From Escherichia coli (GTDB lineage: Bacteria; Pseudomonadota; Gammaproteobacteria; Enterobacterales; Enterobacteriaceae): a DNA stretch of 64,000 bases. The stretch lies in the NCBI RefSeq assembly GCF_044647545.1, contig NZ_CP172818.1. One strand, written 5' to 3'. Shown in pieces: positions 21,917-25,204 of the stretch. A program made the position numbers and the translations under genes. Position 1 is the first letter of the stretch. Every line of letters begins with the position of its first letter. The notes under the pieces were generated by a model. It worked only from the letters and a program-made list of their open reading frames with translations. It made no database searches and was not told the DNA's origin.

Positions 21917-23161
21917 TTACTGATACACCGGCAGCAAATTAAAGCTCGATAAGATATGGACCAGTGCGTTGCCAACGCCAAATACCAGAATCAGCATAAT
22001 CATCGGCTTGCCGCCCCAGACGCGGAATTTCGGGCTACCAAAGCGTTTACGCGATGCGCGGGCCAACAGCGCCGGAACAATTGCCGCCCAGATGGTAGCC
22101 GCTAAGCCAGCATAACCAATGGCGTACAGGAATCCGTTAGGAAACAGCAGGCCACCCACAACAGGCGGGGCAAAGGTCAGCAACGCTGTTTTCAAACGGC
22201 CCATAGCCGAGTCGTCGAAACCAAACAGATCTGCCAGATAGTCAAACAAACCCAGCGTTACGCCAAGGAACGAACTCGCTACCGCAAAGTTTGAGAATAC
22301 GACCAGCAGAAGATCCAGGCTACGGCTGTTCAGCACGCCGCTTAACGCCTGTACCAGCACATCAATATTACCGCCCTTCTCGGCGATGCCGATAAACTCC
22401 GGACGAGGGATGTTGCCCATCGTCGCCAGCAACCAGATGGTATACAGCGCCAGCGCCATCAGCGTACCGTACACCAGGCATTTCACGATGGTTTTCGGAT
22501 CTTTGCCGTAATACTTCATCAGGCTCGGCACGTTACCGTGATAACCAAACGATGCCAGACAGAATGGCAGTGTCATCAGCAGATACGGCGCATAAGACGC
22601 ATTGCTTTCGGCGACGTTGAACAATGTCGCAGGCTGTACATGCCCCAGTAGGCTACCGAAGGTGAGGAAGAAGGTAATGACTTTCGCACCCAGCACAATC
22701 GCCGTCATCCGGCTGACCGCTTTGGTGCTCAACCACACCACAAACGCCACCAGCAGTGCAAAACCAAAACCCGCTGCCCGTGCCGGGACGTTCAATGACA
22801 TCTCTGCGAAGGTATGATGCAGAATCGAACCGCTGGCAGAAATATAGGCATAGGTCAGGATATAGAGCACAAAGGCAATGGAAATGCCGTTGACCACGTT
22901 CCAGCCTTTGCCCAGCAAATCTTTGGTGATGGTGTCAAAGCTAGAACCGATTCGGTAATTCAGGTTAGCTTCCAGAATCATCAAGCCGGAATGCAGCATA
23001 CAGAACCAGGTAAAGATCAGCGCCGCCATTGACCAGAAGAACCACGCCCCGGACATGACCACAGGCAGAGAAAACATCCCTGCGCCAATAATGGTGCCGC
23101 CGATAATCACCACGCCGCCAAGCAGCGACGGTGACGTTTGGGTGGTGGTTAGTGTTGCCAT
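21917..23161 (-). CDS. mtr: Mtr, high-affinity tryptophan permease
   Basis: 414-aa hydrophobic ORF. Confidence 0.92.
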
Positions 23162-23206
23162 GAGGGCTTCTCTCCAGTGAAAAATAGTGCGACTGCGTTG
23201 TTATGC

Positions 23207-23290
23207 ATTGCACTGTACCAGTACATGAGTACAAAAGACAGAAAAAAAGCCCCGATTGTTAAAATCGGGGCTGTATATATTATTTTACAG
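23207..23290 (-). promoter_or_regulatory. mtr promoter/operator region (TrpR-type operator and TyrR-box-like palindrome)
   Basis: Minus strand reads tgtactcatgtactggtacagtg (GTACT repeats typical of TrpR operators); palindrome ctgtatatattattttacag resembles TGTAAA-N6-TTTACA. Confidence 0.45.
23242..23271 (-). terminator. Rho-independent terminator downstream of deaD
   Basis: Minus strand agccccgattttaacaatcggggc hairpin followed by a T7 run. Confidence 0.6.
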
Positions 23291-23314
23291 ACTGTATTCG
23301 CTGTTCAGCGATGA

Positions 23315-25204
23315 TTACGCATCGCCACCGAAACGACGACGACCGGTAGAGTCATCACGACGCGGTGCGCGGCCTTCACGACGTTCGCCGCTAAAACGAC
23401 GACCATCACCACGGCCACCTTCACGGCGTTCACCGCTGAAGTTACGACCGCCTTCACGACGTTCGCCACCGAAACCACGACCACCGCCACGACGCTCACC
23501 GCCAGTATGCGGCTGTGCATCGCCCAGTAACTGCATATTCATCGGCTTGTTGAGAATGCGAGTACGCGTAAAGTGTTGCAGCACTTCACCCGGCATACCT
23601 TTCGGCAGTTCGATGGTGGAGTGAGAAGCAAACAGCTTGATGTTACCGATGTAACGGCTGCTGATGTCGCCTTCGTTAGCAATCGCACCAACGATATGAC
23701 GAACTTCAACACCATCATCGCGGCCCACTTCAATGCGGTACAGCTGCATATCGCCAACATCACGACGTTCACGACGCGGACGATCTTCACGGTCACCACG
23801 CGGGCCACGGTCGTTACGATCGCGCGGACCACGGTCATCACGGTCACGGAATTCACGTTTCGGACGCATCGGCGCATCTGGCGGAACAATCAGAGTACGT
23901 TCACCCTGTGCCATTTTCAGCAGTGCGGCGGCCAGAGTTTCGAGATCCAGCTCTTCACCTTCTGCCGTCGGCTGAATTTTGCTCAGCAGTGCACGGTATT
24001 GATCCAGATCGCTGCTTTCCAGCTGCTGCTGTACTTTAGCGGCGAATTTTTCCAGACGACGTTTGCCCAGCAGTTCTGCGTTCGGCAGTTCAACTTCCGG
24101 AATGGTCAGCTTCATGGTGCGTTCAATGTTACGCAGCAGACGACGCTCACGGTTCTCAACGAACAGCAGCGCACGGCCAGCACGGCCCGCACGACCAGTA
24201 CGACCGATACGGTGAACGTAAGACTCAGAATCCATCGGGATATCGTAGTTAACTACCAGGCTGATACGCTCAACGTCCAGGCCACGGGCCGCAACGTCGG
24301 TCGCAATCAGGATGTCCAGACGACCATCTTTCAGTCGTTCCAGTGTCTGCTCACGCAGCGCCTGGTTCATGTCACCGTTCAGCGCGGCGCTGTTGTAGCC
24401 GTTACGCTCAAGGGCTTCTGCCACTTCCAGAGTCGCGTTTTTGGTACGAACGAAGATAATCGCCGCATCAAAATCTTCCGCTTCCAGGAAACGTACCAGT
24501 GCTTCGTTTTTACGCATACCCCAGACAGTCCAGTAGCTCTGGCTGATGTCAGGACGGGTAGTCACGCTGGACTGAATGCGCACTTCCTGCGGCTCTTTCA
24601 TAAAGCGGCGGGTAATGCGACGAATCGCTTCCGGCATGGTTGCAGAGAACAGAGCGGTCTGATGACCTTCCGGGATCTGCGCCATAATAGTTTCAACGTC
24701 TTCGATGAAGCCCATGCGCAGCATTTCGTCAGCTTCATCCAGAACCAGACCGCTCAGTTTAGAGAGGTCCAGAGTGCCACGTTTCAGGTGGTCCAGCAGA
24801 CGGCCCGGAGTACCGACAACGATCTGCGGCCCCTGACGCAGGGCGCGTAATTGCACGTCATAACGCTGGCCGCCGTACAGGGCAACCACATTTACGCCGC
24901 GCATGTGTTTAGAGAAATCCGTCATTGCCTCAGCAACCTGTACCGCCAGTTCGCGGGTCGGTGCCAACACCAGAATCTGTGGTGCTTTCAGCTCAGGATC
25001 AAGATTCTGCAGCAGAGGTAAAGAGAATGCTGCAGTTTTTCCGCTCCCCGTCTGGGCCATACCCAGGACGTCGCGGCCATTCAGCAGATGTGGAATACAC
25101 TCTGCCTGAATTGGAGATGGTTTTTCGTAACCCAGATCGTTAAGGGCTTCAAGGATAGGAGCCTTCAGGCCCAGATCTGCAAAAGTGGTTTCGAATTCAG
25201 CCAT
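23315..25204 (-). CDS. deaD: DeaD (CsdA) cold-shock DEAD-box RNA helicase
   Basis: ATG at 25204 ([33 protein letters not shown]), 629 aa, DEAD box present; the track ORF begins 22 codons upstream. Confidence 0.92.

What the first reader, a model, noticed from the sequence alone, without database searches (positions are those of the whole stretch)
23207..23290. mtr control region shares space with the deaD terminator
Upstream of mtr the minus strand carries tgtactcatgtactggtacagtg (repeated GTACT, TrpR-operator-like) and a TyrR-box-like palindrome ctgtatatattattttacag. The deaD terminator hairpin (23242-23271) sits between them, so termination of the preceding gene and repression of mtr use overlapping DNA.
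Basis: partly seen in the sequence, partly recalled or inferred. Interest (0 to 1): 0.25.

Follow-up and report, generated by a model that had tools for sequence, protein, structure and literature searches.

The report
Known mtr promoter with embedded deaD terminator
This is the well-studied control region of the E. coli tryptophan permease gene mtr, whose TyrR and TrpR binding sites flank the transcription terminator of the upstream gene deaD; it is a compact but ordinary, already described arrangement.

Summary
The window is E. coli, and deaD and mtr lie head-to-tail on the minus strand, 153 bp apart. Reading 5'->3' on that strand, the spacer holds:
- a weak TyrR-box-like 18-mer over the deaD stop codon (23319-23302)
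- a strong TyrR box, TGTAAAATAATATATACA (23289-23272)
- a 9-10 bp GC-rich hairpin plus T7, the deaD intrinsic terminator (23271-23242)
- a poor -35 (23241-23236)
- the TrpR operator GTACTCATGTACTGGTAC (23232-23215), overlapping an extended -10 (TGgTACAGT)

In 73 Enterobacteriaceae intergenic regions the operator is invariant. The hairpin keeps pairing through compensatory and G-U changes. The distance from TyrR box to operator stays at 56 +/-1 bp, while the flanking segments vary by about 20-27 bp.

Published work describes TyrR as mainly an activator of mtr (class I, via alpha-CTD) and TrpR as the repressor. The operator does not overlap the terminator; about 9 bp separate them. The terminator instead fills the spacer between the activator site and the core promoter.

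These sites were defined experimentally in 1991 and are catalogued in regulon databases. Verdict: already known, low interest. One modest untested idea remains: the terminator DNA may be constrained both as an RNA hairpin and as a fixed-length spacer.

The parts
23315..23317 (-). deaD stop codon TAA (deaD CDS 25204-23315)
   Evidence: ORF list. RefSeq annotation of the identical sequence.
23302..23319 (-). Candidate weak (distal) TyrR box CGTAATCATCGCTGAACA, overlapping the deaD stop codon
   Evidence: It matches 8 of 12 consensus positions and keeps G-N14-C. It lies 12 bp from the strong 18-mer, which is 8 bp between 22-bp boxes. That fits the description in PMC4374768 of a distal weak box 8 bp from the strong box. 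The assignment is inferred. It is found only in some Escherichia sequences.
23272..23289 (-). Strong (promoter-proximal) TyrR box TGTAAAATAATATATACA
   Evidence: One mismatch to the consensus and unique in the window. Conserved as YGTAAAGTAAAATATACA in 69 of 73 Enterobacteriaceae intergenic regions. Its centre is 42 bp from the centre of CTGTCT, as stated for the mtr -35 in PMC4374768.
23242..23271 (-). deaD intrinsic terminator: stem 23271-23263 / 23257-23249, loop 23262-23258, U-tract 23248-23242
   Evidence: Found by the terminator scan and supported by folding. Across genera 96.6% of cells are paired, 6 of 9 pairs show compensatory changes, and there are 34 G-U wobble cells that would be mismatches on the other strand.
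23236..23241 (-). -35-like hexamer CTGTCT (3/6 match), directly abutting the T-tract
   Evidence: Inferred from 18-bp spacing to the -10 and from the 42-bp statement in PMC4374768. The sequence is not conserved between genera (A1 columns 54-59).
23215..23232 (-). TrpR operator GTACTCATGTACTGGTAC
   Evidence: Pattern match. It is invariant except for 2-3 central bases in 53 distinct sequences. mtr is listed as a TrpR target in PMC5343134 and as one of the five operators in the Jeeves et al. 1999 title cited in PMC12566513.
23212..23220 (-). Extended -10 element TGgTACAGT, inside the right half of the TrpR operator
   Evidence: Read directly from the sequence. It is invariant as TGGTACAGT or TGGTACAAT in all genera. 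Its function as the -10 is inferred.
23203..23207 (-). Predicted mtr transcription start (about 23205)
   Evidence: Inferred from the -10 position only.
23159..23175 (-). mtr Shine-Dalgarno GGAGAG (23175-23170) and ATG (23161-23159)
   Evidence: Sequence and annotation.

Best explanation
The 153-bp deaD-mtr spacer is the known mtr regulatory region of E. coli, and the deaD intrinsic terminator is packed inside it.

- Termination: transcripts coming from deaD end at a strong GC-rich hairpin plus U7.
- Promoter: immediately downstream lies a sigma-70 promoter with a poor -35 and an extended -10.
- Repression: Trp-bound TrpR binds the operator that covers the extended -10 region and excludes RNA polymerase.
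- Activation: TyrR binds, with phenylalanine or tyrosine, to the strong box just upstream of the hairpin, helped by a weak box over the deaD stop codon. It activates transcription as a class I activator through alpha-CTD.
- Spacer: the roughly 30 bp that encode the terminator fill the gap between the activator site and the core promoter, at about -66 to -37 relative to the inferred start.

Shown here: the sequence elements, their cross-genus conservation, the RNA-level covariation of the hairpin, and the fixed spacing. Taken from the literature: the direction of regulation and the alpha-CTD dependence. Inferred: the exact transcription start, the -35 assignment and the weak-box assignment.
For: - Identity and synteny with E. 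coli deaD and mtr.
- The TyrR box is unique in the window.
- The terminator is predicted and folds stably.
- In 73 intergenic regions from more than 25 Enterobacteriaceae genera, deaD-mtr synteny and a 133-159 bp spacer are kept.
- The operator and TGGTACA are invariant.
- The hairpin is supported by covariation and by strand-specific G-U pairs.
- The distance from TyrR-box centre to operator is 56 bp in 60 of 70 sequences, 55 in 9 and 57 in 1. In the same sequences, stop-to-box distance ranges over 9-28 bp and operator-to-ATG over 30-57 bp.
- Literature: TyrR strong and weak boxes lie upstream of the -35, the strong box is 42 bp from the -35, and activation goes through alpha-CTD (PMC4374768). 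mtr is repressed by TrpR and activated by TyrR (PMC5343134). Activation needs an appropriately located strong box upstream of the -35 (PMC7142922). Regulon reconstructions list mtr under both TrpR and TyrR.
Against: - The primary footprinting and mutagenesis papers could not be read. Site-to-footprint correspondence therefore rests on a secondary description and on my own recollection.
- No 3'-end or TSS data for this locus could be retrieved. Termination efficiency and the transcription start are not demonstrated here.
- The -35 hexamer is weak and not conserved.
- The weak box is an 8/12 match and is not conserved outside Escherichia.
- PMC4374768 also mentions a TyrR-dependent repression mode with tryptophan, so TyrR may not act purely as an activator.
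Confidence: 0.9

Rival explanations
1. The hairpin is a tryptophan-responsive attenuator, or leader terminator, of mtr rather than the deaD terminator. On this reading mtr would be transcribed from a promoter inside the end of deaD and controlled by premature termination.
For: - Sub-threshold Rfam hits to Trp_leader (22 bits, E = 0.084) and the trpB motif cover the hairpin.
- A promoter-like match, TGAACA-17-AATAAT, lies at 23307-23279 on the minus strand.
Against: - All Rfam hits are far below their gathering scores (22 against 41 bits) and cover only the generic terminator.
- There is no ATG, and so no leader peptide or Trp codons, between the deaD stop and the hairpin.
- No alternative anti-terminator pairing appears in the fold.
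- The TGAACA region is not conserved between genera.
- The conserved extended -10 and the TrpR operator lie downstream of the hairpin.
Confidence: 0.02
2. The palindrome acts mainly at the DNA level, for example as a protein-binding site for a nucleoid protein or a second TyrR site, and the terminator resemblance is incidental.
For: - The stem base (CCCC/GGGG) is invariant in sequence.
- The palindrome sits where alpha-CTD or architectural proteins would bind.
- From my recollection, HU and IHF were reported to affect mtr transcription in vitro (Yang et al. 1996). I could not verify this here.
Against: - Six of 9 stem pairs change by compensatory substitution.
- 34 cells are G-U wobble pairs, which are meaningful only in RNA of the sense strand.
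- The loop sequence varies freely.
- The U7 tract is on the sense strand only.
- No TyrR-box match lies in the hairpin.
Confidence: 0.05
3. deaD and mtr are co-transcribed as part of a pnp-nlpI-deaD-mtr operon. On this reading the hairpin is a leaky or processing/stabilising 3' structure, so that much mtr expression comes from read-through.
For: [quoted passage not shown] The genes are head-to-tail, with conserved synteny.
Against: - A 9-10 bp GC-rich stem (-16 kcal/mol) followed by seven U residues is a canonical strong terminator.
- mtr has its own conserved promoter and operator downstream of it.
- The operon statement in PMC4538292 is unreferenced and was not tested there.
Confidence: 0.1

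Closest known systems
E. coli K-12 mtr regulatory region (TrpR operator plus strong and weak TyrR boxes; Heatwole & Somerville 1991; Sarsero, Wookey & Pittard 1991; Sarsero & Pittard 1991, as cited in PMC4374768)
   Same: It is the same locus. The window differs from K-12 at 5 of 165 positions, and neither TyrR box is affected. The layout matches the published description of a proximal strong box, a distal weak box, both upstream of the -35, and 42 bp from the strong box to the -35.
   Different: The operator centre reads CAT here and CGT in K-12. The top of the hairpin differs: a 9-bp stem with a 5-nt loop here, against an 8-bp stem with a 7-nt loop in K-12. Both changes are within the natural variation seen across genera.
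tyrP promoter of E. coli (TyrR class I activation from a strong box upstream of the -35)
   Same: A TyrR dimer on an upstream strong box activates through alpha-CTD, and an adjacent weak box modulates the response (PMC4374768; PMC7142922).
   Different: From my own recollection, the weak box at tyrP overlaps the -35 and mediates tyrosine-dependent repression. At mtr both boxes are upstream, and the spacer between box and promoter encodes another gene's terminator.
trp operon operator/promoter (TrpR operator overlapping the -10)
   Same: A GTACT-containing pseudo-palindromic operator overlaps the -10 region, so repressor and polymerase compete.
   Different: The mtr operator matches the trpO 18-mer GTACTAGTTAACTAGTAC at 12 of 18 positions (my own comparison) and carries a third GTAC repeat. 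mtr has no attenuator.
Canonical intrinsic (Rho-independent) terminators in head-to-tail gene pairs
   Same: A GC-rich stem, a short loop and a U7 tract lie 43 nt after the stop codon. Such head-to-tail terminators are thought to insulate the downstream promoter (bioRxiv 10.1101/2024.07.17.603904).
   Different: This one lies inside the downstream gene's activator-to-promoter spacer, abutting the TyrR box on one side and the -35 on the other.

Membership tests
TyrR box | 18-bp palindrome TGTAAA-N6-TTTACA with invariant G-N14-C | tested here: met
   The strong box at 23289-23272 matches 11 of 12 positions and keeps G-N14-C. It is conserved in 69 of 73 related intergenic regions. The weak-box candidate at 23319-23302 matches 8 of 12 and keeps G-N14-C.
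TyrR box | For activation: a strong box upstream of the -35 at a fixed, helix-phase-appropriate distance | tested here: met
   The box centre lies 42 bp from the -35-like hexamer, which agrees with PMC4374768. The box-to-operator distance is 56 +/-1 bp in 70 of 70 box-bearing sequences.
TyrR box | Bound by TyrR protein (footprint, mutational loss of regulation) | not testable with these tools
   This is reported in the literature cited by PMC4374768. The primary papers are not held.
TrpR operator | Pseudo-palindromic operator with GNACT half-site motifs resembling GTACTAGTTAACTAGTAC | tested here: met
   GTACTCATGTACTGGTAC has the outer GTACT...GGTAC arms, one mismatch to GTACT-N8-AGTAC. It matches trpO at 12 of 18 positions (my own comparison). 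It is invariant across genera.
TrpR operator | Overlaps core promoter elements of a tryptophan-related gene | tested here: met
   It overlaps the conserved extended -10 TGgTACAGT, 54 nt upstream of the mtr ATG. The promoter assignment is inferred.
TrpR operator | Tryptophan-dependent binding by TrpR | not testable with these tools
   mtr is listed as a TrpR target in PMC5343134 and in Jeeves et al. 1999, cited in PMC12566513.
Intrinsic terminator | GC-rich stem-loop followed directly by a U-tract on the sense strand, downstream of a stop codon | tested here: met
   The stem has 9-10 pairs (6 of them G-C), the loop is 5 nt and the tract is U7. It starts 43 nt after the deaD stop.
Intrinsic terminator | Structure maintained by selection (covariation) | tested here: met
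   96.6% of cells are paired, against 90.3% in shuffles and at most 53% when the partners are slid. Six of 9 pairs show double changes, and 0 of 500 shuffles reach the observed covariation.
Intrinsic terminator | Transcript 3' ends map to the U-tract in vivo | not tested
   The Term-seq supplements searched gave no entry for this site, or the files were not held.
Amino-acid leader/attenuator (Trp_leader, RF00513) | Leader peptide ORF with regulatory codons, alternative anti-terminator pairing, and a score above the Rfam gathering threshold | tested here: not met
   The score is 22.1 bits against a gathering score of 41. There is no ATG between the deaD stop and the hairpin.

The most novel reading that the evidence does not exclude
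The deaD terminator may be an integral architectural part of the mtr promoter. Its DNA would then be under two constraints: it must fold as an RNA hairpin with a U-tract to stop deaD transcripts, and it must keep a fixed length of about 30 bp so that TyrR sits on the correct helical face.

The T-tract, at about -43 to -37, could also serve as an A/T-rich docking surface for alpha-CTD. If so, changes in terminator length or T-tract would alter TyrR activation of mtr, and the module 'TyrR box - terminator - promoter' would have been selected as a unit across Enterobacteriaceae.
Probability: 0.3. Interest if true: 0.3.

Novelty: already known. Interest (0 to 1): 0.1.

Why it matters
It matters little beyond annotation. 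The finding correctly relocates textbook regulatory sites (the TrpR operator and TyrR boxes of mtr) and shows how tightly enterobacterial intergenic DNA can be packed.

The comparative result may be useful to people who engineer mtr or deaD, or who design compact terminator-promoter junctions. That result is the fixed 56-bp spacing across genera, with a covarying terminator in the spacer. It suggests a simple test of whether terminator-coding DNA can double as an activator spacer or UP-like element.

Tried and rejected
- Primary papers: I tried to read the 1991-1996 papers on mtr regulation (PMC208063, PMC212541, PMC207980, PMC178520). None is held.
- 3'-end and TSS data: I looked for deaD 3' ends and the mtr start in Term-seq supplements (PMC7815308, PMC9023263, PMC12207403, PMC6061677). 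They had no entry or no files.
- Rfam: the scan gave only sub-threshold, terminator-driven hits, including Trp_leader. I rejected the attenuator reading because there is no leader ORF.
- Within-window motif statistics are weak. The TyrR box at <=2 mismatches is at chance level, and the TrpR pattern gives 2 matches against 0.7 expected. I relied on cross-genus conservation instead.
- The promoter scan did not find the mtr promoter, whose -35 is poor. It returned two other consensus matches, minus 23307-23279 and plus 23256-23283. These are not conserved, so I set them aside.
- I considered a weak TyrR box lying inside the hairpin or between the strong box and the -35. No match keeping G-N14-C exists there.
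- A search for literature on terminator T-tracts acting as UP elements gave nothing specific.

Full report
**Identity of the locus**

The window segment 22700-23800 is 100% identical to several complete E. coli genomes and is present in 5425 of 5426 of them. [quoted passage not shown] Both genes are on the minus strand. deaD ends with TAA at 23317-23315, and mtr starts with ATG at 23161-23159. The spacer is 153 bp. It differs from K-12 MG1655 at five positions: two between the TyrR boxes, two at the top of the hairpin, and one at the centre of the operator. K-12 coordinate = window coordinate + 3282656.

**Check of the observation**

- The TyrR-box-like palindrome is TGTAAAATAATATATACA (minus strand 23289-23272), one mismatch from TGTAAA-N6-TTTACA. 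At <=1 mismatch it is the only match in the 64-kb window, against 0.09 expected. At <=2 mismatches the count is at chance level.
- The TrpR-like sequence contains the 18-mer GTACTCATGTACTGGTAC (23232-23215). A simple outer-arm pattern gives 2 matches in the window against 0.7 expected, so it is not significant on its own.
- The hairpin is GCCCCGATT-ttaac-AATCGGGGC (23271-23249) followed by T7 (23248-23242). The terminator scan finds it on the minus strand. On the plus strand the same palindrome has no T-run. The hairpin folds at -16.1 kcal/mol, and the surrounding 96 nt fold better than all 200 shuffles (z = -3.7).

**Comparative evidence**

A scan of one genome per species with the Mtr protein returned 80 loci from more than 25 genera of Enterobacteriaceae. 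Wherever enough upstream DNA was held, deaD lies immediately upstream of mtr, with a spacer of 133-159 bp.

An alignment of 53 distinct sequences, running from the TyrR box to just past the -10, shows the following.
- There are 27 invariant columns. Nineteen of them form the block GTACT..GTACTGGTACA, that is, the operator together with an extended -10 (TGgTACAGT or TGgTACAAT).
- The strong TyrR box is kept as YGTAAAGTAAAATATACA in 69 of 73 intergenic regions. Three Cedecea-like sequences and Shimwellia lack it.
- The presumed -35 hexamer (CTGTCT in E. coli) is not conserved.

The hairpin is maintained as a structure rather than as a sequence.
- 96.6% of cells pair. Shuffled partners give 90.3%, and sliding the partners gives at most 53%.
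- Six of nine pairs carry double (compensatory) changes.
- There are 34 G-U wobble cells, which would be C-A mismatches on the other strand.
- The loop varies freely.

This is the signature of an RNA element on the deaD/mtr sense strand, meaning an intrinsic terminator for deaD.

**Spacing**

The distance from the centre of the strong TyrR box to the operator anchor is 56 bp in 60 sequences, 55 in 9 and 57 in 1. In the same sequences the distance from the deaD stop to the box ranges over 9-28 bp, and from the operator to the ATG over 30-57 bp. The hairpin starts immediately after the last base of the TyrR box, and the T-run ends immediately before the -35-like hexamer. Fixed spacing is what a face-of-the-helix-dependent activator would require. 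The four taxa that lack the TyrR box keep the same hairpin length, however, so some of this constancy may be inheritance rather than selection.

**What the literature says**

The primary papers are not in the held library. Three secondary sources describe the region.
- PMC4374768 says that mtr has a strong, promoter-proximal TyrR box and a weak, distal one, both upstream of the -35 and 8 bp apart. The strong box is centred 42 bp upstream of the -35. TyrR activates mtr about 2- to 3-fold with aromatic amino acids through the alpha-CTD of RNA polymerase.
- PMC5343134 states that TrpR represses mtr and TyrR activates it. Its regulon tables list mtr under TrpR in 17 genomes and under TyrR in 5.
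- PMC7142922 states that activation needs an appropriately placed strong box upstream of the -35.

The sequence agrees with this description. The centre of the strong box is exactly 42 bp from the centre of CTGTCT (23241-23236), which lies 18 bp upstream of TACAGT. An 8/12 TyrR-box match with G-N14-C, CGTAATCATCGCTGAACA (23319-23302), lies 12 bp from the strong 18-mer, which is 8 bp if boxes are counted as 22-mers. It overlaps the deaD stop codon. This weak-box assignment, the -35, and a transcription start near 23205 are my inferences.

**Mechanism**

- deaD transcripts terminate at the hairpin and U7.
- mtr is transcribed from a promoter with a poor -35 and an extended -10.
- Trp-bound TrpR occupies the operator, at roughly -27 to -10, and competes with polymerase.
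- TyrR on the strong box, centred near -75, with cooperative help from the weak box, recruits polymerase through alpha-CTD.
- The terminator-coding DNA, at roughly -66 to -37, is the spacer across which this contact is made.

The terminator is nested within the mtr upstream activating region. The repressor's operator is 9 bp away from the terminator. The TyrR site only abuts the terminator, and TyrR is mainly an activator here.

**Rivals considered**

- Attenuator or leader reading. It was suggested by sub-threshold Rfam hits to Trp_leader and the trpB motif. It fails because the scores are about half the gathering thresholds and cover only the generic terminator, there is no ATG between the deaD stop and the hairpin, and the conserved promoter and operator lie downstream of the hairpin.
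- DNA-level protein-site reading of the palindrome. The compensatory and G-U changes and the free loop argue against it.
- deaD-mtr co-transcription by read-through. One paper asserts it without a test. It cannot be excluded quantitatively, but a 9-10 bp GC stem with U7 is a canonical strong terminator.

**Novelty and interest**

These are the experimentally defined mtr control elements of E. coli, catalogued in regulon databases, so the finding is already known.

The comparative result may not have been stated explicitly before. It is that a covarying terminator occupies a length-constrained activator-promoter spacer throughout the family. It supports a modest hypothesis: the terminator DNA is constrained both as an RNA hairpin and as a spacer or A/T-rich alpha-CTD surface. 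I put this at about 0.3 probability. It would be of limited general interest even if true.

**Noticed in passing**

In E. coli strain 1579, IS200C is inserted exactly between the terminator T-run and the -35-like hexamer. This moves both TyrR boxes about 710 bp away from the mtr promoter and provides a natural test of TyrR dependence.

Noticed in passing
L083:2290-3010 (E. coli strain 1579, NZ_CP103718.1); the equivalent window position is between 23242 and 23241: An IS200C element (tnpA at L083 2439-2897) is inserted exactly between the deaD terminator T7 run and the mtr -35-like hexamer. It displaces both TyrR boxes about 710 bp from the promoter. In one search, 18 of 5425 genomes cover less than 80% of the spacer, so a few other genomes may carry a similar disruption.
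   Followed up: partly
L057, L062, L070 (Cedecea and relatives) and L080 (Shimwellia), directly 5' of the hairpin (A1 columns 10-22): These taxa lack the TyrR strong box but share the motif CAGTGATAAAAG at the same position. They keep the hairpin, the T-run and the TrpR operator at the same spacing. The motif is unexplained. It may be an ancestral sequence or a different factor's site.
   Followed up: no
Intergenic regions of L008, L009, L029, L069, L071 and others, about 3 bp upstream of the strong TyrR box: Many non-Escherichia genera carry GCTTTACA-like half-sites just upstream of the strong box. This suggests a second TyrR box in a different position from the E. coli weak box, which overlaps the deaD stop codon and is Escherichia-specific.
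   Followed up: no
window 23236-23241 and 23212-23220 (minus strand): The -35 region of the mtr promoter is not conserved between genera, whereas TGgTACAGT or TGgTACAAT is invariant. This suggests that mtr uses an extended -10 promoter embedded in the TrpR operator.
   Followed up: partly
window 23279-23307 (minus strand) and 23256-23283 (plus strand): Two sigma-70 consensus matches (9 of 12) overlap the TyrR box and the hairpin. Neither is conserved in other genera, so they are probably chance matches in AT-rich DNA.
   Followed up: partly
window 23215-23232, compared with K-12 (L082): The central bases of the TrpR operator are polymorphic within E. coli and its relatives: CAT here, CGT in K-12, CGC in E. 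albertii and another E. coli, and CTT or CCT in other genera. The flanking GTACT/GTACTGGTAC is invariant.
   Followed up: partly
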